Shown here: piece after piece, positions 3,068 through 63,029 of the stretch | Position numbering within the stretch: the first letter of the stretch is position 1 | Layout: each line of letters starts with the position of its first letter | Source: Mobula birostris | Lineage: Eukaryota | Reading direction: 5' to 3' | Assembly: GCF_030028105.1 (NCBI RefSeq) | Contig: NC_092376.1 | Span: 103,972,230 to 104,036,229, forward strand | Length of the DNA: 64,000 nucleotides | Notes under the pieces: model-generated | What the model was told of the DNA's origin: nothing | Databases searched by the model: none | What the model saw: the letters and a program-made list of their open reading frames with translations, nothing else | Translations under genes and position numbers: made by a program

Positions 3068-3340
3068 ACAAGATGGTGGAGCAACTCGGCAGGTCAGGCA
3101 GTATCTATGGAGAGGAATAAACAGTCAAGATTTTGGGCCGAGACTCTTCATCAGGACTGGGAAGGAAGGGGGAAGAAGCCACTATTAAGAAGATGTGTGG
3201 AGGGGAAGGAGTACAAGGTGGAAGGAGATGGATGAAGCCAGGTCAGTGGAAAAGTGGTGGATGAAGTGAAAAATTGGTATGTGATAGAGGGAAAAAGTAG
3301 AGGACTGAAGACGGAACTGATGGGTGAGGAGAGTGGACAC
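3068..3340 (-). mobile_element. Penelope-like element 3' end with degenerate hammerhead
   Basis: Minus strand reads AGTCCTGATGAAGAGTCTCGGCCCAAAATCTTGACT, with GAAACGUC decayed, next to a purine-rich UTR like 60710-61000. Confidence 0.7.
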
Positions 3341-5822: not shown

Positions 5823-6790
5823 CAGAATCAGAATCAGATTTATTATCACAGGCATGTGATGTGAAATTTGTTAACTGAGCAACAGCAGTTCAATGTAATA
5901 CCTAATCTAGCAGAGAATAAAAAATAATAAACCAAAAAGGTAAATCAATTACGTATATTGAACAGATTTTTAAAAGTGCAAAACCAGAAATATTGTATAT
6001 TTAAAAAAAGTGAAGTAGTGTCCAAAGATTCAATGTCCATTTAGGAATCGGATGGCAGAGGGGAAGAAGCTGTTCCTGAATCACTGAGTCTATGCCTTTG
6101 GGCTTCTGTACCTCCTGCCTGATGGTAACAGTGAGAAAAGGGCATACCCTGGGTGCTGGAGGTCCTTAATAATGGACGCTGCCTTTCTGAGATACTGCTT
6201 CCTAAAGATGACCTGGGTACTTTGTAGGCTAGTACCCAAGATGGAGCTAACTAAGTTTACAACATCCTTCAGCTTCTTTCGGTCCTGTTCTTTAGCCCCT
6301 CCATGCCACACAGTGATGCAGCTTGTCAGAATGCTCTCCATGGTACAACTATAGAAGTTTGAGTGTATTTGTTGACATGCCAAATCTCTCCAAACTCCTA
6401 ATGAAGTATAGCCATTGTCTTGCCATCAATATATTGGGACCAGGTTAGATCCTCAGCGATCGTGACACCCTTGAAGCTGCTCACTCTCTCCACTTCTGAT
6501 CCCTCTGAGGATTGGTATGTGTTCCTTTGTCTTACTCTTCCTGAAGACCACAATCAGCTCTTCTGTCTTACTAACGTTGAGTGCCAGGTTGTTGCTGTGG
6601 CACCCACTCCACTAGTTGGCATATCTGACTCCTGTACGCCCTGTCGTCATCACCTGAGATTCTACCAACAATGGTTGTATCGTCAGCAAATTTATAGATA
6701 GTATTTGAGCTATGCCTAGCCACACGGTCACGGGTATATTAGAGAGTAGAGCGGTGGGCTAAGCACACACCCCTGAGGTGCAGCAGTGTT
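5823..6790 (-). mobile_element. Rex1/Babar LINE, 5'-truncated (RT C-terminal part, 3'UTR, GAATCA tail)
   Basis: ORFs give APQGCVLSPPLYSL and FYSCTMESILTSCITVWHG..LFSLLPSGRRYRS; KFADD lies at about 6680. Tail CAGAATCAGAATCAG. Confidence 0.9.
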
Positions 6791-6826
6791 AGTCCTGACG
6801 AAGGGTCTCGGCCTGAAACGTCGACT
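6791..6826 (+). ncRNA. Minimal type I hammerhead ribozyme (PLE-associated), intact core
   Basis: Stem I AGTC/GACT, CUGACGA at 6795-6801, stem II GGGU-CUCG-GCCU, GAAA at 6815-6818, palindromic ACGU stem III, predicted cleavage after C6822. Confidence 0.8.
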
Positions 6827-6925
6827 GCACCTCTTCCTACAGGTGCTGCTCGGCCTGCTGCGTTCACCAGCAACTTTGATGTGTGTTGCTTGAATTTCCA
6901 GCATCTGCAGAATTCCTGTTGTCTT
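6791..6925 (+). mobile_element. PLE pseudo-LTR fragment (hammerhead plus 3' tail) abutting the 5' end of the Rex1 copy
   Basis: Near-identical to 18181-18279 and to the reverse complement of 60604-60708. Ends with the tail TGAATTTCCAGCATCTGCAGAATTCCTGTTG. Confidence 0.85.
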
Positions 6926-8469
6926 CATCCTGTTACTGTTTTACTTTGTTCTACCGGAATGCACTGATGTTAGGAATTGAGCTGTATGCGTGGTGTGTAA
7001 GGCATATTTTTCACTGTACCTCAGTACATGTGACAATAATAAATGAATTTACTGATTTATAGAGTTGTAGGGATATACAGCAACTATATGCCTGCACGCC
7101 TTGGTCCCTCTTTTCCACAGTTCTGCCACTTACTATGTAATTCCTGACCTATTTTGTCTTGTCAAAATTAAACACCTCGCATTTATCTGAATTAAACATC
7201 AGATACCATTCCTTGGCCTATTACATAGTTGGAATTGGAATTGATTTATTATTGTTACACATACTGAGATACGGTGAAAAGATCATCTTGCTGATCAAAT
7301 CATTACATAGTGCATTGAGGTAGAACAAGGTACAACAATAACACAATGCAAAATAATGTGTTACTCCTACAAAGAAGATGCAGTGCAGGTAACAGTAAGG
7401 TGTAAGATCACAACGAGGTAGATAGTGAGGTCAAGACAAGATCTTAACATACAAGGTTATATTTCAGTTGTATTATAGCAGTGGGTTAGCTGTCCTTGTG
7501 CATGGTGGTACATGTTTTCAAACTTTTGTATTTCTGCCTAAAGTGGGTAAGTTCTTTGATCAAGATCCTGTTTATAATTCATAAATCTTCGGTCATTAGT
7601 CGATAAAGGAATGGCATTACTGGCACAGATAAGATGAAATTGCTGTACAGTTTAATTTGGGCAGTTGCAATAGCATTTTCCATGGAGACACTTCTAAAGT
7701 TGTTTAAGGTCCATAAATTCTCTACATCCTGAGAAATTCAGTTGATTGTGTGTCTGATTAGATTTAGATTAATTTAAGAGACTTTATTGGGTTAAAAAGG
7801 GTAGTTGATCTTATTTTGATCACAGCGAAGCATTTCAGCTGAATAATGAGTCATCTAAGTGTTAGAAGTTTAGCTGCAGAAGGTCCACTGTGATGTAGTG
7901 GTAGTTGGTTCGATCCCATTCACCAAGATTGGCCTAGTCCCAGATAGATATAATTCTCCACATTAATTCGTAAAGCTAAGATGTAGTTTTGGATTAAAAA
8001 AGAGGTATCTGTAGTTTAAAAAAAAACAGCATTCAGATAAGAGCTTGGTTTCATCAAGCTCACTGACTTGTAATGTTCTCAGATGTTGCCTGATCTGAGC
8101 ATTTTCCAGCATCTGCTGCTTTTATTTCTTTTCAACATAATGTGTTGGCTAACAGCAGGGCACTTTAACAATGCTTATTCCTTCATGTGATCCATTTTCT
8201 CAGTATACTCCACTTTATTTCACATTCCATTTCATTGTTTCATCCCTTTTTTAAAAAAAAGTGTTATGAATTCTGTTGCAAAAAAAATTCCATGTCTATA
8301 GCCATCATTTGCAATTTTTTGCCATTATATTGCTATTGTCACATAAACTACCAGTTCTACACATTACTTATTGTAGAACTCAGACCAGTACAATATAGGA
8401 GCAGGCCATTCTGCCTATGATCTTTGTACTGACCAGAGCAATTCAGGCTAATGGTGATAGGGAATACAA

Positions 8470-9539: not shown

Positions 9540-9855
9540 AGAAGGCGCTTAGCTGCTTGTTGAAGTGGTCTCCCAATCTATGTCGGGTCTCACAGGAGGT
9601 GTAGTGGCAGGTGTGGTACTGATGTAGGTGAGCACAAGAAGAATCCTATCACTGGTGTGGGGGCAGGAGGATGGGGAGAGGGCAGGCAGACCTGCGCGAA
9701 GTAAAAGAGATGTAGGTGAGGGCAGCGTTGATGGTGGAGGAAGGGACGCTCCTTTATTTGAAGGAGGACGTCATTTCCTTAGTTAATGTGGTTTCTCTTT
9801 TCATAGATGCTGTCTGATATGAGTATTTCAAGCATTTTGGTTTTGAATTCCAGCA
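9540..9855 (-). mobile_element. Old PLE fragment with inverted tail
   Basis: Resembles the PLE at 50401-51435 and is followed by CATAGATGCTGTCTG..AGCATTTTG..TTCCAGCA in the opposite orientation. Confidence 0.5.
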
Positions 9856-13507: not shown

Positions 13508-14316
13508 TTGACCCTGGATTTGTATCCTTTGGACTCTTGAGTGGATTTGAAATCGGAATCTATTAACCTCATGAGAGCAGAGCCATTTGAAAGAAAACTG
13601 AAACATTAAAAAAAAACACTTGAATTTTCTAGCGATGCCATTGAGAAAAATGTATAATTGTTCAGGGTTTGTATTGGAAGCCTGAATTTGAACTTGGAGA
13701 GTGATTTATCATCTTCACCTTGTTTTCATGTGGACGAATGATTAGCATGGGTATATGAATGAATTAGGGTTAAAATTAATTTGATTAGATTGCATTTCAT
13801 ACTAATGCTTTTGTAAATTAAAACAATACCATAACAGGATATAATTTAAATTTTTAATTTCTGTGTTTTATTCCAATACAGTTAGTTGGGTTAGTTTGCC
13901 AAGGATGAGATGGCACATCAAAGACTTAAAGCATTAAAGTGTAGCTTCAATTTAAAGTAATGATTTGGAAGCTATATAAGCTATATTTCTTTTCTGACAA
14001 AGGGTGGATCATTGTGTAAGTTGCAACTTTTGATCTGTATTGGAAGGTATTACAAACATTCCAGCAGTAAGTGATGTTATTTCTGAATAACTGGTTTGGA
14101 TTCATCTTGCACTTCATTACTGAATTGGGTTTTTTGCATGCTGTTAACTGACTAATTTTAGAATATTGATTAGTCTTGCATATTCTGTAATTTGAGACAA
14201 ATATCTATGGAGTTCCTACACTCTGGTTTAAGTAGGTGAAAGTTATGCTGCTTTACAAAGCAGTACTGGTAATTGGATAACTTTCAAACAGAGCAAACCA
14301 AGTAATAAAACCTATT

Positions 14317-14497
14317 CAACAACACACAAAATGTTGGAGGAACTCAGCAGGCCAGGCAGCATCTATGGGGGGAGGGCTGGGAGGAGAAGAAAAAAAGTAC
14401 TTTTCTTCCATAGGTGCTGCCTGGCCTGCTAGGTTCCCCCAGCATTTTGTTTGTGTGTGTGTTGCTCAGATTTTCAGCATCTGCAGATTTTCTCTTT
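14317..14497. mobile_element. Inverted-repeat PLE mini-element (hammerhead deleted) with 15-bp TSD
   Basis: Arms GCAGGCCAGGCAGCATCTATGG and CCATAGGTGCTGCCTGGCCTGC. TSD GTAATAAAACCTATT (14302-14316) and GTAATTAAACCTATT (14498-14512). Confidence 0.75.
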
Positions 14498-14513
14498 GTA
14501 ATTAAACCTATTA

Positions 14514-16812
14514 TCATCTACCACTACAGGTCACAGTGGGTGAACATCTGGGGGACAGTGACCACCGCTCCCTGGCCCTTAACATTATCATGGAAGAGGA
14601 TAGAATCAGAGGGGACAGGAAAATTTTTAATTGGGGAGGGGCAAACAATGAGGCTATAAGGCTAGAACTTGCGGCTGTGAATTGGGATGATATTTTTGCA
14701 GGGAAGTGTTCTATGGACATGTGGTCGATGTTTAGGGATCTCTTGCAGGATGTTAGGGATAAATTTGTCCCAGTGAGGAAGATAAAGAATGGTAAGGTGA
14801 AGGAACCATGGGTGACAAGTGAGGTGGAGAATCTAGTCAGGTGGAAGAAGACAGCATACATGAGGTTTAGGAAGCAAGGATCAGATGGGTCTATTGAGGA
14901 ATATAGGGTAGCAAGAAAGGAGCTTAAGAAGGGGCTGAGGAGCAAGAAGGGGGTATGAGAAGGCCTTGGCAAGTAGGGTAAAGGAAAACCCCAAGGCATT
15001 CATTTATGTGAAGAACAAAAGGATGACAGGAGTGAAGATAGGACGGATTAGAGATAAAGATGGGAAAGTGTGCCTGGAGGCTGTGGAAGTGAGCGAGGTC
15101 CTCAATGAATACTTCTTCGGTATTCACCGATGAGAGGGAACTTGATGGTGGTGAGGACAATTCTTCGGTATTCACCGATGAGAGGGAACTTGATGATGAG
15201 TGAGGTTGATGTTCTGGAGCATGTTGATATTAAGGGAGGGGAGGTGTTGGGGTTGTTAAAATATATTCGGACGGATAAGTCCCCGGGGCCTGACGGAATA
15301 TTCCCTAGGCTGCTCCATGAGGCAAGGGAAGAGATTGCTGAGCCTCTGGTTAGGATCTTTATGTCCTCGTTGTCCACGGGAATGGTACCGGAAGATTGGA
15401 GGGAGGTGAATGTTATCCCCTTGTTCAAAAAAGGTGGTAGGGATAGTCCGGGTAATTATAGACCAGTGAGCCTCACGTTTGTGGTGGGAAAGCTGTTGGA
15501 AAAGATTCTTAGAGATAGGATCTATGGGCATTTAGAGAATCGTGGTCTGATCAGGGACAGTCAGCATGGCTTTGTGAAGGGCAGATCATGTCTAGCAAGC
15601 CTCATAGAGTTCTTTGAGGAGGTGACCAGGCATATAGATGAGGGTAGTGCAGTGGATGTGATCTACATGGATTTTAGTAAGGCATTTGACAAAGTTCCAC
15701 ACGGTAGGCTTATTCAGAAAGTCAGAAGGCATGGGATCCAGAGAAGTTTGGCCAGGTGGATTCAGAATTGGCTTGCCTGCAGAAAGCAGAGGGTCGTGGT
15801 GGAGGGAGTACATTCGGACTGGAGGGTTGTGACTAGTGGTGTCCCACAAGGGTTGGTTCTGGAACCTCTACTTTTCGTGATTTGTATTAACGACCTGGAT
15901 GTCGGGGTAGAAGGGTGGGTTGGCAAGTTTGCAGACGATACAAAGGTTGGTGGTGTTGTGGATAGTGTAGAGGATTGTCGAAGATTGCAGAGAGACATTG
16001 ATAGGATGCAGAAGTGGGCTGAGAAGTGGCAGATGGAGTTCAACCCGGAGAAGTGTGAGGTGGTACACCTTGGAAGGACAAACTCCAAGGCAGAGTACAA
16101 AGTAAATGGCAGGATACTTGGTAGTATGGAGGAGCAGAGGGATCTGGGGGTACATGTCCACAGATCCCTGAAAATTGCCTCACAGGTAGATAGGGTAGTT
16201 AAGAAAGCTTGTGGAGTGTTAGCTTTCATAAATCGAGGGATAGAGTTTGAGTCATAGGGTAATGATACAGCTCTGTAAAACTCTGGTGAGGCCACGCTAG
16301 GAGTACTGTGTCCATTTCTGGTCGCCTCATTATAGGAAGGATGTGGAAGCATTGGAAAAGGTACAGAGGAGATTTACCAGGATGCTGCTTGGATTAGAGA
16401 GTATGCATTATGATCAGAGATTAAGGGAACTAGGACTTTACTCTTTGGAGAGGAGGAGGATGAGAGGAGACATGATAGAGGTATACAAGGTATTAAGAGG
16501 AATAGATAGAGTGGACAGCCAGCGCCTCTTCCCCAGGGCACCACTGCTCAGTACAAGAGGACATGGCTTTAAGGTAAGGGGTGGGAAGTTCAAGGGGGAT
16601 ATTAGAGGAAGGTTTTTTACTCAAGAGAGTGGTTGGTGTGTGGAATGCACTGCCTGAGTCAGTGGTGGAGGCAGATACACTAGTGAAATTTAAGAGTCTA
16701 CTGGACAGGTATATGGAGGAATTTAAGGTGGGGGGGTTATACGGGAGGCAGGGTTTAAGGGTTGGCGCAACATTGTGGGCTGAAGGGCCTGTACTGTGCT
16801 GTACTGTTCTAT
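14514..16812 (+). mobile_element. CR1-clade LINE, 5'-truncated, 2.3 kb (end of APE endonuclease, RT, 3'UTR)
   Basis: HLGDSDH (endonuclease C-terminus), full RT, C-terminal RRMRGDMIEVYK..TRGH, tail GGGCCTGTACTGTGCTGTACTGTTCTAT. Several frameshifts. Confidence 0.95.
15130..16257 (+). pseudogene. CR1 ORF2 reverse transcriptase domain (frameshift-bounded fragment)
   Basis: KSPGPDGI, NYRPVSLT, QHGF, DFSKAFDKVPH, SGVPQG, KFADD, WQMEFNPEKC. Confidence 0.92.
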
Positions 16813-18041
16813 AATGTCTGAAAATATATGGAACAATAATGCCATTTTTATGCTTCTGTAATAGTTGCAGTGTCTTTTCAGTACTAGCTTAAAAACTAAA
16901 GGAATCAAAGGTAAAAGGGAGAATGGATTGAAGCAGTAGGTCTTGCGCCATGTATCTATTGGACTAATTTAAGAATGCAACTCATAGAGCAACATGGATA
17001 ATCTATTTCATGCAATGTACTTTAAGTCTTTGTAAGTGTGGTTTATATGGGGAAAAACAAGGGTCAAAGAAGAAATTAAATAATTGTGTTGAAAAGAGTC
17101 AGTAATTGGAAGTGGGCAGTAATACTATGACTTGTGGATTTCTGTGGGGTTTCAGCCTATGCTCTTTGTTTTCATAAGTGAACTGGACCAAAATTGTGCT
17201 TGGTATTCTCAGAAAATTATTAAATGAACATCTATGTTATGTAATAGGAATTGGACCCAGTTAAATTGATAATCTAAGGGTCAATTGATGAAATGGAGGA
17301 TTGTTTTCAGCAGGAAAAGAACATGATGAATATAATGTTGTGGTGGTTGGAAACTTACTTGGTGATCACTCTTTTAATCACTTCCTCCAGTTAAAGTAGA
17401 AAATACATTAATTACACCCCATGAAATATCTATCTGTGACATTGTGGGTTATGAGATGTATTATAAAGTCATTTTGCTGTTCGATTGTTATGAAGTATTC
17501 AAGCTTTAATGTCATTAAGAACATTTGAAATAAGTTTAATCAACACCTCTAGTTTGCATTATGCTTTTGTTTTACTTTGATGCTTGAGATACAAGAGTAG
17601 TCTATTTGAAATTATTGTGTATATCCCATTAACTGCATAATAAATGGATCTATTAATCAGGATAGCATGTTAAGCTAATTACGTTAAAATGGGATGCAAA
17701 GCAAGTTAGAAAATAGAATTCATCAAATTAGTTAAAGGCAAAGTTCTTTGAATATTCCACTAAATATGTTAATATATTAGCAGCAACTAATGAGCCTTGA
17801 TTTGTATTTGTGAATTTATAACAGGAATGTGCATTTTATAATATACTTTTTTATATTGATTAAGACACAAGCTGCAAAAACTATTGGCAGTGGGTATGCT
17901 GAGTTTATTTTTAAGTTAAATAGATTCAATGAAAGAACGTAATTGGCCTTAATTTAAGTAAATAGGTTTGAAAAATGTGTCAATTGCTCAGTCTTTACTG
18001 TGTCTCATTTGCAGTTAAGCAGTCAACAGGAGGAAGAGTGC

Positions 18042-18279
18042 AAACAACAAGAATTCTGCAGATGCTGGAAATTCAAGCAACACACATCAAAGTTGCTGGT
18101 GAACGCAGCAGGCCAGGCAGCATCTCTAGGAAGAGGTACAGTTGAAGTTTCAGGCCGAGACCCTTCGTCAGGACTAACGAAGTCCTGACGAAGGGTCTCG
18201 GCCTGAAACGTCGACTGTACCTCTTCCTAGAGATGCTGCCTGGCCTGCTGCGTTCACCAGCAACTTTGATGTGTGTTGC
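18042..18279. mobile_element. Inverted-repeat PLE mini-element with hammerheads on both arms and 15-bp TSD
   Basis: 99-bp arms 18077-18175 and 18181-18279 (2 mismatches), 5-nt spacer, 35-bp unpaired tail at 18042-18076. TSD CAGGAGGAAGAGTGC (18027-18041) and CAGGAAGAAGAGTGC (18279-18293). Confidence 0.9.
18181..18216 (+). ncRNA. Minimal type I hammerhead ribozyme, intact core
   Basis: AGTC-CTGACGA-AGGGTCTCGGCCT-GAAACGTC-GACT, predicted cleavage after 18212. Confidence 0.8.
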
Positions 18280-19299
18280 AGGAAGAAGAGTGCGATAGCT
18301 GAGCCCAACGTGGTGCTTAGGAATAGGCTGAACGATTCTCAGCCATTTTCAGCCTGATATACCAACCCCAACTGGTGATTGGCACTGACTAATTCCTGAG
18401 ATCCACACCACCATAGATTAATTTAAGCAATAGAACTCTGAATAGAACAGGCATGGGCCTGGTATTCTACCTGTGATTTTTATTTTAAAAAGCTGTTTCT
18501 TTATCAAACTGTTTGATAATGGTTACAACATGGAACTTTGCTTGTAAACTGCAAAATTTTCCAGGCCTGCCTAAACGTACAAATCATAAATCATGTTAAC
18601 CTGTTCACAGCCAAAAACTTGCTCTTGATCATTTGCAGTGTAGTGAAAGCTATCCAAGTGTCACATTGTGCTTAGCAGTAACTTCCTAATGTTCAGTTTG
18701 AGGTCAGTCTGAATCTCTCTGCTTCATATGTCATTACTTGTGGGGGAAAAACACTGACATCCGGAGAAGTAGAAAGGGTAGTTGTTGCTTTGACTAAGAT
18801 TAACTTCAAGGAACTGTAGTACAATTGAAAGTAATTGTGAGTTTGTACAAGTTTTATATTAACTGATGTTCAAAGGCTTACTGTTGTAATCCTGATAAAC
18901 AGAAAAAGTATGGGATGTGATATCAAAGAAATCTCAGCAGAATTGCAATGAATTACGTAACTTGCATGCATTATCCACTACTGACAATGGAGAAAGTGAA
19001 TGAGGCTGATGAAAAGTATTCAAAAGCCTTTGTGACAATGCCTCAAATGCTCCATTATAGTTCCTGTTTAATTCTCATCCAGTCAGCAAATCAGTTCTAT
19101 TAGAGGTGGCACCACAGTGTTTATAGATACCTACTTTCTTGATTTGAAAATAAATCATGATTTGTTAATGCTGGATCAAAATCTTAGACGAATTTTTTTT
19201 GGAGTATTTTACCATTCAGTCTAGTGTCTCATAACATGCATTTATGACAAATTGCAACAAGGTTTGAGTATTCAACATTGATCTTGACAAAGATATTAG

Positions 19300-21194: not shown

Positions 21195-21512
21195 TAGTCA
21201 TACCACACAAAATCACGTCCAGTAGCCCACTGAGATGGCATCAAACATGAGACACAGTTTGCAGGAATCCTGTTCTTTTTATTTTCACCACTCCCATCAA
21301 TCCTCACTAATTGTACCATTCATCTACATACCTGGATAATTTATAGTGCTCAATTAACCTACCAGTTTTCACAGCTTTGTGATGTGGAGAAAACTGAGCA
21401 CCCAGAGCAAATCCTCATGGTCACATAGAGCACATGCAAATTTCATTCAGACGGCACTGGAGGTTGGGATTGGAGTTGCAGGAACCAAGGTAGTAGCTCT
21501 ATGAGATCTACT
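21195..21512 (-). mobile_element. V-SINE (HE1-like), degenerate
   Basis: V-domain-like CTTTGTGATGTGGAGAAAACTGAGCACCCAGAGCAAATCC..GGTCACA..ATGCAAA. Confidence 0.7.
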
Positions 21513-23488: not shown

Positions 23489-26136
23489 TATTCCTTCTCA
23501 ATACTTTTTGTTCCTTCTATGACTTGGCTTTGCATTGTTTGTTGGAAAATGAAAGAATTAGTACCTTCAACTAAGTCACCATGTAGATTGTAAATATGAG
23601 ATCATAACACTGATTCCTGCAGCAGTATGTTGGTTGCAGCTTATCAACTCATCATTTAAATTTGTTTTCTGCCCTTTATCAAGTCTGTATCCATGTTAAT
23701 ATTACTCCAAGCTTACAGGATCTTATGTAATGCCTTTCATGTGGCACCTTATCAAATGCCTCATTTAAATGTATGTCCTTGCTGTCATTATTTGCATCCT
23801 TTATGCAGGCTCTTAAGTTTGCCATAACATGATTTGGTTTTCACAAGATCATGTTGACTTTGCCTAATCGTATCCTTTAAGTGCCTGTTACCATTTTCTT
23901 AATAATATACTCCAGCATTTTCTGACAACCATTGACAGGCTATAACTAGCCAGTAGTTTCATTACATTCTGCTTTTTCCTGAATAATATTGTTGTATTTG
24001 CTGTTTAAAATTTGCTGAAACTATTTTAGAATCCCAAAGAATTTTGGTTGATCACAACTATTGCATTTGTTGCAAACATTTTTTTTAGGACTCCAGGATT
24101 TGAGTTCTAAATGTCAGGGGATTTGTTGGCTTTTCAATAGCTTTTCCTTGTCCTTTACTTTGTTTCTCATTTTTAATTGCTTGACGGTTCCTATTGCATT
24201 TGGAATCCCCTGCTGTGAAAACAGATACCTGCTAATCTACTAACTGACTATTCAAATCCCAATGGTTCAGCATCTGGCTCATGAGTGATAGTTACCACTC
24301 TGTCCTGATGCTGTGTAGGATTCCCAGTTTGGAGAAATGTTGTTTAACGGTATACATGTATGTAGTTAGTTGACAATAAACTTGACTTGATTTAACTTGA
24401 CAGTGATACCCATTAAAAGAAAGTAATTAGAAGGCAACTTAACATGTAGGTTTAAAAGCAGAAATCAGCAATCCTTTGGCCAAATTATTCTGCAAATATC
24501 CACTAAATCCACCCGTTCTGGTGTGTATACTATGAATACTTAAATGCCTCTTTCCAGTGGCGAAAAAGCTTCTGAAAAAATGATAATCCATTCAGAAGCA
24601 CAGATATGATTTTCAGTCTGTGAGAAATGCAAAAAAAAATTGGAGCAGAGTACCAATACTGTTTGGACTTTTTTCCCCACTGTCAGTAAAGGCTTTAACT
24701 CTAAGGCATGTAAATTCATCTCTAATTTGCATTTGTTTCTTGTGTGCAAACCATGATCTGAAAGTATAAAAGCAGACTGGATGCAAGTCGTTTTTAATCC
24801 CAAGGAACTGCCTCAGAAATATGTATACAATGATTTTGGGAGCCAACTGAATTTAAGGATAAACCTAACTTTCTATAATTGTTGAGTCTCATTCTTTAAT
24901 ATTTCAGTTTTCTAAATTTGAGTTCCTGACTTGGAACAATAAATCTCTCTGCATTTTTCCCTTTATTTTGCTTTGTGTGATTTCAATTAAGAAAGCTAAA
25001 TTGCTTAGAGTAAATGCCATGAGTCCTTGTCAGTTTTATGTATTGGTCTGGCCTGTGTTGGAAATGATACTAACACAAGTAAGAATGACAAGTTTTCATT
25101 GCTGAAGTATTGATGTGACAACTGACTTTTATTCTCATGTTTTGCTGAATTTGACTTGAATTCTGCTTGGTACATTCCATGTACAGGAATATTTAGTATA
25201 GTATTGGTTATACTTCATGTTGATTAGGAAATGGGGTTTGAACTTTGTGATCCTAGTTGGAATGTTTGGAATTGCCTGAAAACCAGGATTATTGAAGCAT
25301 TGGATTAAGGTACAAAAATGACATCCTCAAGTGTTGTTTATGAAACAAAGCTATGTAACTTACAAGATTCTTTGCTTTTATGATTAATGAAGTGAACTAG
25401 AGCCTGGTTACCTAACGAGACCTGATCATATTAAGGTGTTTTCTCTGATTAACTATTTAGACTTCTGTCTATTTGGATAGTATCACACTGGGAAGCTGCA
25501 GCACATAGTTTATGTTAGGATGCTTGGTTCGTTGTCACTGCCCGTGTCCTGTCCTTGGATCAATGCCTGTGTCCTCTGTCTTAGATCAGTATTTGGTGTT
25601 TCATCATCAAACATATCAATAATATGTTTGGTATTGTTATATTTAGGATGATGGTTGGGTTAGGTATGGAGAGGTTTATACATAATCTGACTTGGATCTG
25701 GTTTGGATTGTTATTGAATTCTTTACCTAAGCAATTCTATAAACTAAACCACAGTTAGTTTTAAAAGCTGTTCAATTCATAACATTGTTAATGGACAGCA
25801 CCTGGAAGCCAAAATGTACATTATATAATATTTCTACATTTCAAATTTTGTCAACATGGAAAATAAATAATAATTGTCCTATTTTCCCTTGTATCTATAT
25901 TATCAGTCTAAAATGCAGTTAAGGTACAAAGATCCAAAGTTACAAATTAAAATTAGCATATTAACTAACATAATCATTAAAAGTGGTTACTGGACTTTGG
26001 TTAGAAAAGAATGGAATTCAAAAGTAGCAAGTTTGTCCAGCTACTTGGAAAATATGCCTGTTTTTAAAGGGGAAAAACCCCACATAGTAGAGTTTCACTA
26101 ATGTGATACTAGAAATAAAAAGTTTTATCTCTCTTA

Positions 26137-27370
26137 AGAATCAGAATCAGGTTTAATATCACCAGCATATGTCATGAAATTTGTTAACTTAATGGCAGCA
26201 GTACAATGCAATACATGATAAATGTAGAAAAAAATTACACTAAGTATGTATGTTAAATGTTTAAATTTAAGAATAGTAGTGCATAGACTGAAATAGTAAA
26301 AAAAAAGTGAGGTAGTGTTCATGGGTTGAATGTACATTTAGGAATTGGATGTCAGAAGAATTTGCTGATGATACAACTGTTGTTGGTAGAATCTCAGCTG
26401 GTGACAAGAGCGCGTACAGGAGTGAGATATGCTAATTAGTGGAATGGTGCCGCAGCAACAACCTGGCACTCACCGTCAGTAAGACGAAAGAGCTGATTGT
26501 GGAATTCAGGAAGTGTAAGGCAAAGGAGCACATACCAATCGTCATAGAGGGATCAGAAGTGGAGAGAGTGAATGGCTTCAAGTTCCTGGGTGTCAAGATC
26601 TTTGAGGATCTAATCTGGTCCCAACATATCGATATAGTTCTAAAGAAAGCAAGACAGCGGCTATACTTTGTTAGGAATTTGAAGAGATTTGGCATGTCAA
26701 CAAATACACTCAAACTTCTATAGTTGTACCATGGAGAGCATTCTGACAGGCTGCATCACTGTCTGGTATGGAGGGGCTACTGCACAGGACTGAAAGAAGC
26801 TGCAGAAGATTGTAAATCTAGTTGTCTCAATCTTGGGCACTAGCCTACAAAGTACCCAGCACATCTTTAGGGTCTCAGAAAGGCAACGTCTATTATAAAG
26901 GACCTCCAGCACCCAGGGCATGCCCTTTTCTCACTGTTACCATCAGGTAGGAGGTACAGTAGCCTGAAGGCACACACTCAGTGATTCAGGAACAGCTTCT
27001 TCCCCTCTGCCATCAGATTCCTGAATGGACATTGAAGCTTTGAACACTACCTCTTTTTTTAATATACAGTATTTCTGTTTTTGCATTTTTTTAAATCTAT
27101 TCAATATATGTAATTGATTTACTTATTATTTTATTTATTATTATATTTTATCTCTGCTAGATTATGTATTGTATTGAACTGCTACTGCTAAGTTAACAAA
27201 TTTCACGTCACATGCCGATGATCGATGATAATAAACCTGATTCTGATTCTGAAGAAGCTGTCCCTGAATCGCTGAATGTGTGCCTTCAAACTTCTGTAGC
27301 TCCTTACCAACAGTAACAATGAGAAGAGGGCATACCCTGGGTGACAGGGGTCCTTAATAATGGACACCCC
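26137..27370 (-). mobile_element. Rex1 3' fragment split by a younger Rex1
   Basis: AGAATCAGAATCAGG tail at 26137. The sequence breaks at about 26358 and resumes at 27251 (GAAGAAGCTGTCCCTGAATCGCTG). Confidence 0.8.
26359..27250 (+). mobile_element. Rex1 LINE, 5'-truncated at FADD
   Basis: FADDTTVVGRIS..WCRSNNLALTVSKTKELIVEFRK..FKFLGVKI..KKARQRLYF, tail AAACCTGATTCTGATTCT. Confidence 0.9.
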
Positions 27371-38967: not shown

Positions 38968-40820
38968 AATCAGAATCAGGTTTATTATCACTGGCATGTG
39001 TTGTGAAATTTGTTAACTTAGCAGCAGCAGTTCAATGCAATTCAATACAATTAAAAATTGTGCAAAAACAGAAATAATACATATTGAAAAAGTGAGGTAG
39101 TGTTCATGCATTCAAAGTCCATTTGGGAATTGGATGGTAGAGGGGAAGAAGCTGTTCCTGCATTGCTGAGTGTGTGCCTTCAGGCTTCTGTACCTCCTAC
39201 TTGATGGTAACAATGAGAAAAAGGCATGCCCTGGGTGCTGGGGTTCCTTAATAATGGATGCTGCTTTTCTGTGACACTGCTCCTTGAAGATGTCCTGGGT
39301 ACTTTGTAGCTTAGTGCCCAAGATGAAGCCAACTAAATTTATGACCCTCTGCAGCTTCTTTTGGTTCCGTGCAGTAGCTGTCTTTCCCATCATTCCCCCC
39401 CCCCCCGCCCCAATACCAGACCGTGATGCAGCCTGTCAGATGCTCTCCGTGGTACACCAATAGAAGTTTTTGAGTGTTTTTGTTGACACACCAAATCATT
39501 TCAAACTCCTAATGAAGTGCAGTTGCTATCTTGCCTTCTTTATTGCTGCATTGATATGTTGGGACCAGGTTAGATCCTCAGAGATCTTGACACCCAGGAA
39601 CTTGAAACTGCTCACTCTCTCTACTTCTGATCTCTGAGGATTGGTATGTGTTCCTTCGTCTTACTCTTCCTGAAGTCCACAATCAGCTCTTTCGTCTTAA
39701 TGACGAGCACAAGGTTGTTGCTGCAGCAGCACTGCACTAGTCGGCATCTCTCACTCCTGTGCGCCCCCTCATCTCCATCTGAGATTTTACCAACAATGGT
39801 TGTATCATCAGCAAATTTATAGATGGTATTTGAGCTATGCCTAGCCACACAGTCATGGGTATAGAGAGAGTAGAACGGTGGGCTAAGCACACACCCCTGA
39901 GGTGCACCAGTCTTGATCGTCAGCGAGGAGGAGATATTATCACCAATCTCACAGATTGTAGTCTTCTGGTTAGGAAGTTGAAGATCCAATTGCAGAAGGA
40001 AGTACAGAGGCCCAGGTTCTGTAACTTTGCAGTCAGGATTGTGGGAATGATGGCATTAAATGCTGAGTTATAGTCGATGAACAGCATCCTGACATAGGTG
40101 CTTGTATTGTCCAGGTGGTCTAAGGCCATATGACGAGCCATTGAGATTGTGTCGGTTGTTGTGGTGATAGGCAAATTGCAGTAGGTCCAGGTCCTTGCTG
40201 AGGCAGAAGTTCAGACTTGTCATGACCAACCTCTCAAAGCATTTCATCACTGTAGATGTTAGTGCTGTTGGGCGATGGTCATTAAGGCAGCTCACATTAT
40301 TCTTCTTAGGCACTGGTATAATTGTTGCTTTTCTGAAGCAAGTGAGAACTTTCACCCATAGCAGTGGGAGGTTGAAAATGTCCTTGGGTACTCAAGGCAG
40401 TTGGTTGGCATAAGTTTTTAGGGCCTTACTAAGTACTCTGTCGGGTCCTTCTGCCTAACGAGGGTTCACCCTCTTTAAAGACAGTCTGACGTCAGACAGA
40501 GATCACAGGGTCACTGGGTGCAGCAGGGACTTCACAGCTGTTGTTATATTCTCCTTTTCAAAGTGGGCATAGAAGGTGTTGAGTTCATCTGGTACTGAAG
40601 CGCCACTGCTTTTCATGTTAACAACAGGAATTCTGCAGATGCTGGAAATTCAAGCAATACACATCAAAGTTGCTGGTGAACGCAGCTCCGTCCTGACGAA
40701 GGGTCTCGGCCTGAAATGTCGACTGCACCTCTTCCTACAGATGCTGCCTGGCCTGCTGCGTTCACCAGCAACTTTGATGTGTGTTGCTGCCTTTCATGTT
40801 GTTGGGTTTTGCTTTGTAGG
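38968..40820 (-). mobile_element. Rex1 LINE (RT domain to tail), frameshifted
   Basis: [60 protein letters not shown], tail AATCAGAATCAGG. Confidence 0.92.
40620..40787. mobile_element. Inverted-repeat PLE mini-element with hammerhead variant and 14-bp TSD
   Basis: Same termini as 18042-18279, with the left arm shortened. GTCCTGACGAAGGGTCTCGGCCTGAAATGTCGAC starts at 40690. TSD CTGCTTTTCATGTT (40606-40619) and CTGCCTTTCATGTT (40787-40800). Confidence 0.85.
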
Positions 40821-50400: not shown

Positions 50401-51435
50401 TAGCAGGTCGGGCAGCATAATTGGAAATGAATGATCAATCAATGTGTTGGGCCAAAACCTTCCTTTCAGACTGGCAAAGAAGGGGAAGATGCCAGATGAA
50501 ATAGGTGGTGTGAGAGGAAGAAGGATAGCTCGAAGGTGGCAGGTTGAAGCCAGTTGGGTCTGAAAGGTAAAGAGCTGGAGAAGAGGGAATCTGATGGGAG
50601 AAGAGAGTGGACCATAGGAGAAAGGGAAGGAGGCACCATGGGGAGGTGAATGGCAGGTAAGAAGAGTGGGAAATTGAAGAAGGAGGGATGGGGAGGGAAT
50701 TTTTCTTTACCAGAAGGAGAAATCGATATTCATGCCATCAAGTTGGAGGCTACCGAGATGGAATATATGGTGTTGCTCTTCTGTCCTGAGGATCGTCTTA
50801 TCGTCACTCAAGAGGAGGCCACAACAGACGTGTCGGAACAGTAATGGGAATCAGAATTAAAATCTTCAGCCATCGGAATGTACCAGTTTTGGTGGATGGA
50901 GCAGAGGCGCTTGATGAAGTGGTCTGCCACAGGTCTCACCAATGTTGAAGAGGCTGCATCAGGAGCACCAATACAATAGATGGTAAGGGAGCAGGTGAAT
51001 AGCACTTTGGCTCTTTGCAAGGATAAGTGCCAGAAGGGAGATTAGTGGGGAGAGAGAGAAATGGACCAGAGAATCATGGAGAGAGCGATCCCTGTGGAAA
51101 GTTGGGGGTGGGGATGTTGGGGGAAGGTGTTGCCTTGGAAAGGAAATCCTCAACCTGGGAACAGATGTGGCGGAGGTGAAAGAATTGAGAAAAGAAAATA
51201 GCATATTTATAGGTGACGGTGGGAAGAGGTATTGTCAAAGATAGCTGTGGGAATTGGTAGGTTTAGAAAAGTTGTCTGTTAACAGTTTGCCTCCAGAAAT
51301 GCAGGCAGAAAGATGGGGGGAAAAAGAAGGGAGGTGTCAGAAATGGACCAAATGAATTTAAGTTTAGGGTGTAAGTTGGAGGCAAAGTTGAGGCAAGTTC
51401 AGCATGGGTGGAGGAAACTGCACCAATGCAGTCAT
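50401..51435 (-). mobile_element. Degenerate PLE (RT C-terminus, GIY-YIG, 3'UTR, decayed hammerhead)
   Basis: FHRDRSLHDSLVH, HFIKRLCSI..DFNSDSH, and GAAATCGATATTCATGCCATC as at 61018-61040. Confidence 0.75.
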
Positions 51436-53185
51436 CAACACAGGCTGCGGCAGAAATTGAACCCCAGTCGGTTAAAGATGGCTCTGTAAAGCAATGTTCT
51501 AACTGATAAACTACATTACTCCGCTTATGAAACACATCTGTATTGAATTGATGTGATTGAAGTGAATTTCAAAAGTGAAGTAGATATGAAATGCAACTTT
51601 TTTGCAGTTTTATCCTCTATGGATATTGATTTGTTGAATTTCTATTTCTTCTTTCTCCCCTGCCCCAAGTCAAGGTATCAAATTAGACAGCAAAGTAAAA
51701 GCTCCTGGTTGATGATCTCTGCTGATTTAAATTTGCCCAAGTACCACTGGCCTCTGGTGTTTTATTTTAAAGTAGTAGTAACATCAGGAAACTGGAGCAA
51801 GCATTATGCAAACCGATTGCTGTATGTCACATACCTTGCGTAATTTCCTTTACTGGTGAAGTAAATAATTGAATAACTTCCTCTGCAGTTAAATCGATCA
51901 CACTAGCATGTAATAAATTTTTTATAATTACACTTTTGTTCCAAGTTTTCATTTTGGCCATGGCTGAAGCTGCATTAGAAATTAGTGCTCCAGCTCAACT
52001 GTAGTCAACTACAACAAGGATTTAAAAAAAAAATTCACCTGCCAGTCCCTCTCAAATTTCAACTAATGAGGATTGACTGTACAGGAGGCAGCACTCAGTT
52101 CTATGCCTGAGAGATTGTTTCATTTCCCACCCCACCATGACTCTTTTTGTTGTATGTACACCAATTATTCTTCCCAGTTCCAGTGCTGCAGAATGGTGGA
52201 CTAACTATTAAAATTTCATTCTAGTGAATGTGCTTCCCCCTTATTCCTAATATTTAATGGCATAAGTAATTTACAGGTGTTTGATTTACTGTATTTTTTG
52301 TATATGAAAAAACTAGATTACCAGAATGGCCCCATGATGAGATAAAGTATTGGTAGCTGGCCTTGTACTACCCTGCAGCTTCACCTTATGATTCTTATTC
52401 CCCCCCTCCCACCCCCTGTGTTTTCTTCCACACATGCTTCCCTTCTCTTTCGCTGTCTGCTTTAAAAGTTAATGAACCTGGACAGTGTTGATGCTATTAA
52501 TAATTTAGTGGTGCACTGTTACTTTGCTTCTGTTTTGAAAAGAACTATCCACTTTAGGTGCTCTGTAAAACAAAAGGCTGAAGTATTAGACTTTGTCTTT
52601 TTAGAGCAGTTTGCTGCTCCTGAAAAATAATGTAGTTATTTAATGTATGGAAATAATAGGCCTAAATATTTTAACTTCCATATTTTGTTTAATATACTTC
52701 ATAAAGCCATTTCAGCACTTTAGTAATTTATCATGAACATTATAACTTCTGTCCTTCATGTTTGATGTTGACATTTGATAATTACCAGAGCAAGATCATA
52801 TTAGTGATGTCATCTACTGAGGGTATTTCTTTACTTTATACTTCATTGTCACCAAACAATTGATACTAGAACGTACAATCATCAAAGCGATGTTTGATTC
52901 TGTGCTTTCCACTCCCTGGATTCTTTAATAGCCTGATCAGTGGTTTCTTCAGAGAATCAAATATAGATTATGTGCACTGTACAGGGAAGAAGAAATGCAT
53001 GAATGCTAAAGGCCCAATGGTATATGTGTGTACTTAGGCAAAAGAGCCAGGGTCATTCTTTCATTTTGAGTTGCTGTTTAGGGGGTTTGGAGAAACTGAC
53101 TATCCTGAAGAGGAGGATGTGGGAATCTGCAAAATGTGATTGCTGGAGTTACTCAACTTTTTCATTTGAATTAAGAATACAATAA

Positions 53186-60603: not shown

Positions 60604-61216
60604 ATTCAAGCAACACACATCAAAGTTGCTGGTGAACGCAGCAGGCCAGGCAGCATCTGTAGGAAGAGGTGCAGTCGACGTTTCAGGCCGAGACCCTTCG
60701 TCAGGACTAACTGAAGGAAGAGTGAGTAAGGGATTTGAAAGTTGGAGGGGGAGGGGGAGATCCAAAATGATAGGAGGAGACAGGAGGGGGAGGGATGGAG
60801 CCAAGAGCTGGACAGGTGATTGGCAAAAGGGGATACGAGAGGATCATGGGACAGGAGGTCCGGGAAGAAAGACGGGGTGGGGGGGAACCCAAAGGATGGG
60901 CAAGAGGTATATTCAGAGGGACAGAGGGAGAAAAAGGAGAGTGAGAGAAAGAATGTGTGCATAAAAATAAGTAACAGATGGGGTACGAGGGGGAGGTGGG
61001 GCCTAGCGGAAGTTAGAGAAGTCGATGTTCATGCCATCAGGTTGGAGGCTACCCAGGTGGAATATAAGGTGTTGTTCCTCCAACCTGAGTGTGGCTTCAT
61101 CTTTACAGTAGAGGAGGCAGTGGATAGACATGTCAGAATGGGAATGGGATGTGGAATTAAAATGTGTGGCCACTGGGAGATCCTGCTTTCTCTGGCGGAC
61201 AGAGCGTAGATGTTCA
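60604..61216 (-). mobile_element. Young PLE 3' fragment: GIY-YIG C-terminus, 3'UTR and hammerhead
   Basis: EHLRSVRQRKQDLPVATHFNSTSHSHSDM..RLEEQHLIFHLGSLQPDGMNIDFSNFR-stop (61003), followed downstream by the hammerhead unit. Confidence 0.9.
60673..60708 (-). ncRNA. Minimal type I hammerhead ribozyme, intact, sense to the PLE ORF
   Basis: Reverse complement is AGTCCTGACGAAGGGTCTCGGCCTGAAACGTCGACT, identical to 6791-6826 and 18181-18216. Confidence 0.8.
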
Positions 61217-63029
61217 GATTGATTTGAACTAAAATCAGTCTCATATGTTTTCTGTGTACTTGCATGCATTTCTCAAGTTTTCTTGCTAATCGCAAAGGCA
61301 TGTTTTTTTAATTCACTTTTGGGATTAGGCATTACTGGCAAGGCGAGCACTTATTACCCATCCCCAATTACCTCTCTGCAGTTCCCTTTAGAAGGTGGTG
61401 ATGAGCTGCTGCCTTAAACAGCTGCTAACCATCTTGGGGGCTCTACATTACAACTATCTTATCAGTTATCGATTATTTTTGGTATTGGAAAGGAAATTCC
61501 AGAATTTGGCTCCAGCAGCTACAAGCGATGGAAACTTGCAGCTGGTGATGCTATCTTGCTCTTGCTGACCTTGTCCTTGATGGTATATGTCATGGCTGTA
61601 GGAGTGTGCTGTCAGAGTAGTCTGGATGAGTACTTTGTAGGATTTAAAGAATTTAAAATGCTAAACACAGTTGAGGCAGCATACACTGATCATACTGGAT
61701 CATCTCTTTTGTTGGGACTATATAATGGCAACAGTTATTGGTCGGATTGATTTGAACTAAAATCAGTCTCGTGCTTGCTTGCATTTCTGAGTTTTCATGC
61801 TAATAATCATGGATGATTTTTTAAATTCGCTTTTGGGATTGGGCATAATCCCAATTAACAAAAGCACAGTGATATATTTCTGAGGCAGAATGGTATGTGG
61901 CCTGGAGCATTGTGTGCTAGTAATGGAGGCAAGGAATATTTTGGTTTATTGATAAGGTGCCAATTAAACAATCAATGCTTCAATGATCCAACAGGAATTT
62001 TGAAATGCAAACTCAAAGTTAAGTACTAATATTTCAAATATATCCTAACTAAAGAACATGTAACTCCAAAATGGACGATTCCATAGTTTTGCTGCTATTG
62101 AGACTCCTCCCTTCTTTCCTCCTCTAAGTGTCTCATCGTAATCTTCTATTTATTTTGTCAATGCATGTCCAAGCTCCCCTAATTGTTTCTATGTGTTAAG
62201 CCTTCCTCATGTTAATGAGTTCCATATTTTCACCGTGAATGTAGAATACAGAATGACTCCAGCTCGAAGCAACCAAATCAATTTTTCTAAAATCACGTGG
62301 CAGTAGCATGGCTTCAAACCAATAGCAGTATACCCCAACTATCGAGAATAGTAGTTTGTAAACTTTAACTTCAGTACGATTCAAATCTTTGAAGTTTTTA
62401 ATTATTGGAAAAAGCACATTGTCACGTCAAGTTTCTGGTTCTTTTAATTAGAACCAGAATTCTCTCAACAGAGAACAGAAAACTGTATATGCTTTACTTC
62501 TAATTTTACATCGTGCTGTGTATTGCCTTTAGGGTCTATTTATTACAATTATCCATTAGTTACCTTTTTTTGTTGTTAGGCATATGACACGTGGAAATCC
62601 ATCATTATCATGCTTTGCTGTTTTGGATTACCTGTGATAAGATATTGAGAATTTAATACAAAAAAATCCATCTGCTAGATTTGGACTGCATGCTTGGTTT
62701 CTATAGCAACTACCATCAATTTAGTTTGGTGAAAGGAAAGTTTTAAGTATGGTCAGGTGTAAGTGGGGGCACTGTGTAGTTTGCTATCAGTGTTTGCTGC
62801 TTTCACAGTACAGGCATTTTCTTATGTATTTCCTGAAACCAAGGACAGAATACCAGTGTGAAATGTTTTCTAACATCAGGTGGGTTGCTAAGTTATTAAT
62901 CATACTATGTCACTAGCCCATTTTTATTGTATTTAAGTTTATCAGTGTCATGACTCATGTTAATTTCTTGGTTATTACCACTTGGACTTTCCCCATGCTC
63001 TTCAATGCCCCCCTATTTAACTTTATTGT

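What the first reader, a model, noticed from the sequence alone, without database searches (positions are those of the whole stretch)
18027..18293. ORF-less palindromic hammerhead mini-retroelement with a 15-bp TSD: best example of a recurring unit
Seen: a 238-bp insert made of two 99-bp inverted arms (97/99 identical), a 5-nt spacer and a 35-bp one-sided tail, flanked by a 15-bp duplication. Each arm holds a hammerhead; the right one is intact and the left has two substitutions. The same layout with 14-15 bp TSDs recurs at 14317, 40620 and 45299, from two or three sequence subfamilies. Known: PLEs form inverted pseudo-LTRs with a short tail and carry minimal hammerheads. Inference: these are either extreme, stereotyped truncation products of PLE integration or a non-autonomous hairpin retroelement mobilised in trans by PLE RT/GIY-YIG. 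The different hairpin centres favour independent creation at each insertion, which would make them a direct record of the PLE integration mechanism. The parts are known; novelty would lie in the consistency and abundance.
Basis: partly seen in the sequence, partly recalled or inferred. Interest (0 to 1): 0.8.

Follow-up and report, generated by a model that had tools for sequence, protein, structure and literature searches.

The report
Twin-primed Penelope retrotransposon hairpin stub
This 237-base hairpin is a real insertion made of two back-to-back copies of the ribozyme-bearing end of an abundant Penelope-like jumping gene; it is not a self-spreading mini-family but is likely built anew at each site, when both cut DNA strands each start a copy from one of two fixed points on the element's RNA.

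Summary
In detail: 99-bp arms (97/99), 5-nt centre, 35-nt one-sided tail, 15-bp duplication (14/15). A related organism has the empty site, lacking exactly insert plus one 15-mer. The insert is 96-97% identical to the end of full-length RT + GIY-YIG Penelope-like elements (Neptune-type linker) in this genome. It is the short end of a continuum of inverted insertions, a layout already published. It is not a mini-family: 71 different centres in 78 hairpins, and recurrent centres occur in both polarities and on several subfamilies. Inverted insertions carry one tailed and one tail-less end (31 of 31, 30 of 30, 69 of 71), and either arm can reach further 5'. Best reading: both target nicks prime cDNA, one from each of the two known RT start sites, and the cDNA ends are joined head to head. 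Two minor routes also appear: unique junctions shared by neighbours 0.4-2.2 Mb apart (five pairs), and one insertion likely copied from an edited hairpin RNA. The scan reached the same main reading, and both minor routes, on other DNA. Known kind; useful mechanistic record.

The parts
18027..18041 (.). Left target-site duplication copy (matches the empty allele)
18042..18076 (-). 35-nt tail: parent positions about +99 to +133, between the two inferred RT start sites; 2-nt microhomology with the target
18077..18175 (-). Tailed arm: parent 3' end, positions 0 to +98 (0 = first base of hammerhead stem I)
   Evidence: 96% to full-length copy L185
18140..18175 (-). Minimal type I hammerhead with two substitutions; predicted unable to form dimer stem III
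18176..18180 (.). Centre: 3 nt of parent upstream sequence on the tailed arm plus 2 nt that fit a short fold-back of the cDNA end; same centre at 12 places genome-wide
   Evidence: fold-back is inference
18181..18279 (+). Tail-less arm: parent positions 0 to +98; last base shared with the duplication
18181..18216 (+). Intact minimal type I hammerhead motif (stem I 4 bp, bulged stem II, palindromic loop-less stem III)
   Evidence: motif as in PMC4209133 passages
18279..18293 (.). Right target-site duplication copy (one substitution)
14302..14512 (.). Older-subfamily hairpin insertion, 181 bp, 15-bp duplication, tail on right, hammerheads lost
40606..40800 (.). Young-family asymmetric hairpin, 167 bp, 14-bp duplication; junction unique in the genome
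45284..45526 (.). Second-subfamily hairpin, 213 bp, 15-bp duplication, tail on right
6788..6922 (+). Single (non-inverted) tailed stub of the young family; no duplication found
60604..61217 (-). 5'-truncated parent copy: broken GIY-YIG C-terminus, 3' UTR, hammerhead, tail-less end
   Evidence: 97% to L185

Best explanation
The hairpin is a doubly 5'-truncated, head-to-head insertion of an endonuclease-bearing Penelope-like element, likely built at this site by twin target-primed reverse transcription. Inferred steps: (1) the element's protein, probably a dimer, nicks both strands about 14 bp apart; (2) each 3'-OH primes an antisense cDNA, one from the start site near +97 and the other from the site near +133, so exactly one arm has the tail; (3) both cDNAs stop near the front of the hammerhead, probably at the 5' end of the RNA; (4) the two 3' ends are joined by microhomology end joining, often with short fold-back inserts, or one cDNA folds back and is then annealed to the other; (5) gap filling gives the duplication. 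The product is a passive stub whose transcript would fold into a long hairpin that masks both ribozyme motifs. A minority of centres were later or concurrently copied from a neighbouring inverted copy at the DNA level.
For: Shown: parent with RT and GIY-YIG in one open frame and the same end; empty site; both arms read as antisense from the target 3' ends (sequence). One tailed plus one tail-less end in 31 of 31 centre-blind inverted insertions (p about 3e-10 if each end chose freely at the 21:16 ratio of single copies), 30 of 30 and 69 of 71, none with two tails. The same two end points occur in single and full-length copies. The tail-less arm reaches further 5' in 16 and the tailed arm in 12 of 31; 14 vs 13 of 71 minis; 22 vs 8 at one recurrent junction. 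71 distinct centres in 78. 11 of 28 inserts of 6 nt or more match nearby arm sequence. Outer-junction microhomology 1.4 and 0.8 nt vs 0.46 and 0.30 in controls (42 of 65 cleanly mapped). Published in vitro: the anole Poseidon protein nicks and extends both strands, starts at two sites that delimit the tail, and is predicted to be a dimer (PMC11167929).
Against: Arm lengths are strongly coupled (15 short/short, 12 long/long, 2 mixed of 29) and mini arms mostly share subfamily alleles (20 discordant of 303 cells vs 115 expected): plain joining of two independent cDNAs does not predict this, a fold-back step or one shared RNA does. Long insertions are more often discordant (9 of 19 vs 13 of 69), which one shared RNA does not predict. 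In vitro, no difference in start site between strands was reported, and strand-start coupling was not examined in the text I read. Why cDNAs stop at the hammerhead front is not shown: a cap-G test was negative (20 of 50, p 0.2) and RNA contigs showed no clear splice joint. L016 has two tails, from different subfamilies, without a duplication.
Confidence: 0.68

Rival explanations
1. Single priming with fold-back: one cDNA (or a self-primed antisense template, as proposed for rotifer Penelopes) snaps back and copies itself; the second outer end is only an end-joining point.
For: Coupled arm lengths; concordant alleles in minis; fold-back-like inserts; published self-priming proposal (PMC3846280 passages).
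Against: A fold-back copy cannot reach further 5' than its template nor gain a tail, yet the tail-less arm is the longer one in 16 of 31 and 22 of 30 cases. The tail-less end is fixed near +97, the same point at which single and full-length copies end. A fold-back step inside a twin-primed reaction is not excluded and is counted under the best explanation.
Confidence: 0.12
2. A non-autonomous hairpin family: hairpin RNAs from a few masters are reverse-transcribed whole in trans.
For: Recurrent centres (12 and 92 copies). One compound insertion with a 14-bp duplication has 12 T-to-C of 18 differences on one arm, as expected if an A-to-I edited hairpin RNA was the template (L062/L287).
Against: 71 distinct centres in 78; recurrent centres in both polarities (8:4 and 22:8) and on three or more allele backgrounds; continuum to kilobase arms; the edited case is 1 of 603 arm alignments.
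Confidence: 0.04
3. Minis are remnants of longer inverted insertions whose centres were deleted after insertion because palindromes are unstable.
For: Coupled arm lengths; evidence that centres are rewritten by local copying.
Against: 5' ends pile up at -10 to +1 also in single copies (19 of 81 anchor arms, about ten times the hazard further upstream), which random central deletion does not give; no arm-to-arm homogenisation after insertion (shared CpG decays 11 vs 9.1 expected).
Confidence: 0.12
4. A miniature inverted-repeat DNA transposon moved by a cut-and-paste transposase.
For: Terminal-looking inverted arms and a target duplication.
Against: Ends are asymmetric by a 35-nt tail, duplications vary (mostly 12-15 bp), and arms are the 3' end of an RT-encoding element.
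Confidence: 0.02

Closest known systems
Inverted insertion units of EN+ Penelope-like elements (pLTR, adjacent inverted 5'-truncated copy, 30-40 bp one-sided tail; PMC8557442, PMC3846280, PMC2377424, passages)
   Same: Head-to-head inverted copy, one-sided tail, target duplication, minimal hammerhead, partial tandems (L185, L187, L191).
   Different: Both copies are cut to about 100-135 bp so no ORF is left; duplications centre on 14 bp (8-10 bp in the rotifer examples); thousands of cases allow counting.
Poseidon of Anolis carolinensis in vitro (PMC11167929; parts 1-2 of 4 and passages)
   Same: Two RT start sites delimiting the tail, both strands nicked and extended, hammerhead just upstream.
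   Different: Parent here has the CX4CxxC linker of Neptune/Nematis type; the text read does not link the two strands to the two start sites or to inverted insertions.
L1 twin priming (PMC11702581 and 10.1101/2024.08.27.596794, passages)
   Same: Second target end primes a second cDNA; discrete 12-18 bp duplication; junction closed by end joining with microhomology.
   Different: In L1 the two cDNAs copy adjacent parts of the RNA and one starts at poly(A); here both copy the same part from two fixed internal sites, giving a palindrome.
Animal non-LTR retrozymes (10.64898/2026.07.22.740005 part 1 of 5; PMC7229834 listing only)
   Same: Non-coding, PLE-derived, type I hammerhead.
   Different: Retrozymes are direct tandem repeats with their own consensus; these are inverted, with one sense hammerhead per strand and no shared centre.

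Membership tests
EN+ Penelope-like element insertion | Sequence is the pLTR end of an element with RT and C-terminal GIY-YIG in one ORF | tested here: met
   96-97% to both pLTRs of L185; open frame of 1116 codons; Pfam RVT_1 E 3e-5 and GIY-YIG E 1e-3, both below curated cut-offs; GIY-YIG above cut-off in another copy
EN+ Penelope-like element insertion | CCHH motif with two cysteines between GIY and YIG; DKG motif | tested here: met
   Read in the L185 translation against the description in PMC8557442
EN+ Penelope-like element insertion | Inverted 5'-truncated copy and 30-40 bp tail at one end | tested here: met
EN+ Penelope-like element insertion | Target-site duplication | tested here: met
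   64 of 71 vs 4 of 208 controls; empty site
EN+ Penelope-like element insertion | Minimal type I hammerhead in the pLTR | tested here: met
   Motif by inspection and dimer duplex; no Rfam hit
EN+ Penelope-like element insertion | Hammerhead self-cleavage | not testable with these tools
   Needs an assay; a transcript of the locus is predicted to be one long hairpin
Neptune clade | CX2-5CxxC zinc-finger linker between RT and EN | tested here: met
   CX4CxxC in L184-L186 translations; shared with Nematis per PMC8557442
Neptune clade | Placement in the RT tree | not tested
   No reference PLE proteins were fetched; Nematis not excluded
Self-propagating non-autonomous hairpin family | One inherited centre with fixed polarity and own diagnostic alleles | tested here: not met
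Non-LTR retrozyme | Direct tandem repeats with a hammerhead in each unit | tested here: not met
   Arms are inverted
MITE / TIR DNA transposon | Symmetric terminal inverted repeats and fixed short duplication | tested here: not met
   35-nt asymmetry; duplication 10-20 bp, mode 14
Existing Dfam/Repbase entry | Match to a curated repeat consensus | not testable with these tools
   No such library is offered

The most novel reading that the evidence does not exclude
Coupled twin priming is the normal Penelope integration mode: one complex assigns the two RT start sites to the two target strands, so every inverted insertion has one tailed and one tail-less end, and the free cDNA ends (or the fragile palindrome centre) are sometimes repaired by copying the junction of another inverted copy up to about 2 Mb away. 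Thousands of ray hairpin stubs would then be an in vivo read-out of both steps.
Probability: 0.5. Interest if true: 0.65.

Novelty: new member of a known kind. Interest (0 to 1): 0.42.

Why it matters
How Penelope-like elements form inverted repeats and one-sided tails is stated as open in the papers read (PMC8557442, PMC11167929). The counts here turn it into a sharp test: one tailed and one tail-less end per inverted insertion, with either arm longer. That favours twin priming over the published self-priming idea. The shared junctions between neighbours would show short-patch copying between repeat copies over megabase distances in a vertebrate germ line. For annotation, these hairpins should be filed as PLE ends, not as MITEs, retrozymes or regulatory RNAs. 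The single locus is ordinary.

Tried and rejected
Rfam scan of the window: no hit. Cap-derived G before the common 5' ends: not significant (20 of 50 and 6 of 11; the script stopped at its last line after printing these). 3' splice site just before the hammerhead (branch-point-like motif, pyrimidine tract, AG; prompted by PMC4209133): no clear splice joint among the 15 of 146 joints shown for four RNA-guessed contig runs; inconclusive. No RNA holder listed for the locus. Arm-to-arm conversion after insertion: rejected by CpG test. Gradient of arm discordance from centre to end in long insertions: none (19/67, 18/73, 22/86; that tally included some mis-paired arms). Target motif at the nicks: only a mild AT bias (65% AT). 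Local clustering of the 92-copy microhomology junction: none (6 pairs within 1.6 Mb vs 4.3 expected, with some contig lengths estimated). Local twin for the 40620 junction: none; none for the finding's own centre. One search returned nothing (no positions in file headers) and was redone. Host gene context was not determined.

Full report
Observation. The insert lies between two 15-mers at 18027-18041 and 18279-18293 that match at 14 of 15 positions. It holds a 35-nt tail, a 99-bp arm, a 5-nt centre and the inverted arm, 97 of 99 complementary. One contig of organism E joins window 18032 to 18285 and so lacks 252 bases, the insert plus one 15-mer; contigs of organism B enter the insert from both sides. 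The duplication is therefore real. Organisms D and F gave no bridging contig.

Parent. The window is part of a 4.0-Gb genome. An exact 36-nt hammerhead word occurs at 21,387 places. Copies extend upstream into a GIY-YIG and RT frame. A protein search scored 140 of 74,179 candidates and listed open frames up to 1116 codons. L185 is pLTR-ORF-pLTR with a 15-bp duplication; its protein has RT, DKG, a CX4CxxC linker and a CCHH-type GIY-YIG. The hairpin arms are 96-97% identical to its ends. By the description in PMC8557442 (passages) the linker points to Neptune or Nematis; no tree was built.

Is it a family? A pattern that fixes both hammerhead fronts and leaves up to 30 free bases matches 851 places; a variant with one CpG decay matches 301. 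I analysed 49 of the first 50 places (one was already held as L027) and 29 of the first 30 (one duplicate dropped): 71 distinct centres in 78. Seven belong to other subfamilies and were set aside for arm counts. Of 71 young-family hairpins, 64 have a duplication (mode 14 bp; control 4 of 208) and 69 have one tailed and one tail-less arm; the other two are compound. The finding's own centre occurs 12 times, 8 with one polarity and 4 with the other, on several allele backgrounds. The most frequent junction I met, resting on a 3-nt microhomology, occurs 92 times; in the first 30 it is 22:8 in polarity, on three main allele backgrounds, 28 with a duplication. These patterns miss centres that delete into both hammerheads.

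Continuum. From the first 11 Mb of contig C1, 81 of 82 hammerhead-bearing loci could be mapped: 31 inverted, 37 single, 13 cut by the fetch or complex. Fourteen of the 31 are minis; scaled to 21,387 this suggests a few thousand (inference from one chromosome end). All 31 have one end near +133 and one near +97; 27 have a duplication. Single copies end at either point (21 and 16). Six long inverted copies with arms up to 3.4 kb follow the same rule. If each end chose freely, 31 of 31 has p about 3e-10. The tail-less arm reaches further 5' in 16 cases, the tailed arm in 12.

Mechanism. Both arms read as antisense from the target's 3' ends, the geometry expected if both nicks prime cDNA. In PMC11167929 (parts 1-2 of 4 and passages) the anole Poseidon protein nicks and extends both strands, starts at two sites that bound the tail, uses uncut RNA and is predicted to be a dimer; the text read does not derive inverted insertions from this. 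PMC3846280 (passages) proposes self-priming on an antisense template. A fold-back copy cannot exceed its template at the 5' side or gain a tail, so the polarity counts argue against it as the sole route. End joining is suggested by short microhomologies and by locally templated inserts (11 of 28), as for L1 twin priming (PMC11702581, passages). Against a plain two-cDNA join: arm lengths are coupled (2 mixed of 29, after dropping two junction twins) and mini arms share alleles (20 discordant of 303 cells in 83 hairpins, 115 expected), not through later conversion (shared CpG decays 11 vs 9.1). One shared RNA, or a fold-back step within the twin-primed reaction, would explain this. Long insertions are discordant more often (9 of 19 vs 13 of 69, p 0.017; random 72%), which is unexplained. 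5' ends pile up at -10 to +1 (19 of 81). A transcription start there is the simplest cause, but the cap and splice tests gave no support.

Shared junctions between neighbours. Three junctions noticed twice in the C1 samples occur exactly twice in the genome, 0.60, 0.39 and 2.15 Mb apart. A fourth occurs six times: a C1 pair 2.2 Mb apart, an unselected C21 pair 1.4 Mb apart (chance about 0.004) and two singles. Each member has its own duplication; two pairs have opposite polarity; outer ends and subfamily alleles differ, and sharing fades within roughly 30-100 nt of the junction. Among 73 C1 hairpins, 3 of 16 like-centre pairs lie within 3 Mb against 0.46 expected (p 0.011); within 1 Mb the excess is not significant. 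The first four pairs were picked from locally dense samples. The 92-copy junction shows no clustering, and the window's 40620 junction is unique. Short-patch DNA copying from a neighbour fits best; whether at insertion or later is open.

One edited case. L287 is a compound insertion with a 14-bp duplication in which one arm has 12 T-to-C among 18 differences, the only such case in 603 arm alignments. It fits reverse transcription of an A-to-I edited hairpin RNA, so trans mobilisation may happen rarely.

Ribozyme. The right motif matches the minimal type I form that needs a dimer (PMC4209133, passages). Each strand carries only one sense motif and the predicted transcript is a single hairpin of -210 kcal/mol, so activity at this locus is unlikely (prediction).

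What is known. The inverted copy, tail and duplication are published (PMC8557442, PMC3846280, PMC2377424; passages). Retrozymes are tandem, not inverted (10.64898/2026.07.22.740005, part 1 of 5). Ten searches listed no paper that states strand-start coupling or local junction sharing for these elements; the library lacks most subscription papers, older Penelope reviews were not seen, no supplements were read, and Dfam and Repbase could not be searched. Earlier notes of this scan give the same main reading, the neighbour sharing and an edited hairpin on other DNA; I read them after forming and testing these points, except that the editing note prompted the L062 check.

Verdict. Real, well-formed, ordinary as a locus; a new member of a known kind with value as a mechanistic record. 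Interest 0.42.

Noticed in passing
L244/L245, L246/L247, L248/L249, L250/L251, L254/L255: Separately inserted inverted copies 0.4-2.2 Mb apart share a rare junction but differ in duplication, ends and sometimes polarity; fits short-patch DNA copying between neighbours.
   Followed up: partly
L287:2068-2735: Compound insertion with one arm showing 12 T-to-C of 18 differences and an 8-nt tail-end stub before the right duplication; likely from an edited hairpin RNA.
   Followed up: partly
window 60708-60735 (- strand) and parent positions -25 to +1: Branch-point-like motif, pyrimidine tract and AG directly before the hammerhead, also in older subfamilies; could be a 3' splice site or initiator. 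Not shown in RNA contigs.
   Followed up: partly
L188 (G000:C3:231673500-231683400): Tandem array of a 3027-bp unit holding a 5'-truncated parent copy, 99% identical units; looks like a local duplication rather than a PLE tandem.
   Followed up: no
L185, L186, L187: Some full-length copies carry an internal 211-bp in-frame duplication in the proline-rich N-terminal part of the ORF.
   Followed up: no
L016: Hairpin with a tail on both arms, from two subfamilies, without a visible duplication.
   Followed up: no
L191:6002-6549: Contigs of one RNA-guessed run (X19) cover the 5' ORF start in three overlapping pieces at even depth near 360; may be one expressed copy, RNA status unproven.
   Followed up: no
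window 50717-51436, 9624-9778, 3070-3168: Older, 71-76% similar fragments of related Penelope-like elements.
   Followed up: no
window 26132-27365 and 7008-7280: Further inverted repeats at 80-93% complementarity, unrelated to the hammerhead end; probably inverted pieces of other repeats.
   Followed up: no
window 14506-16654: Long LINE reverse-transcriptase remnant (382-codon open stretch at 15109-16254) starting right after the 14317 hairpin.
   Followed up: no
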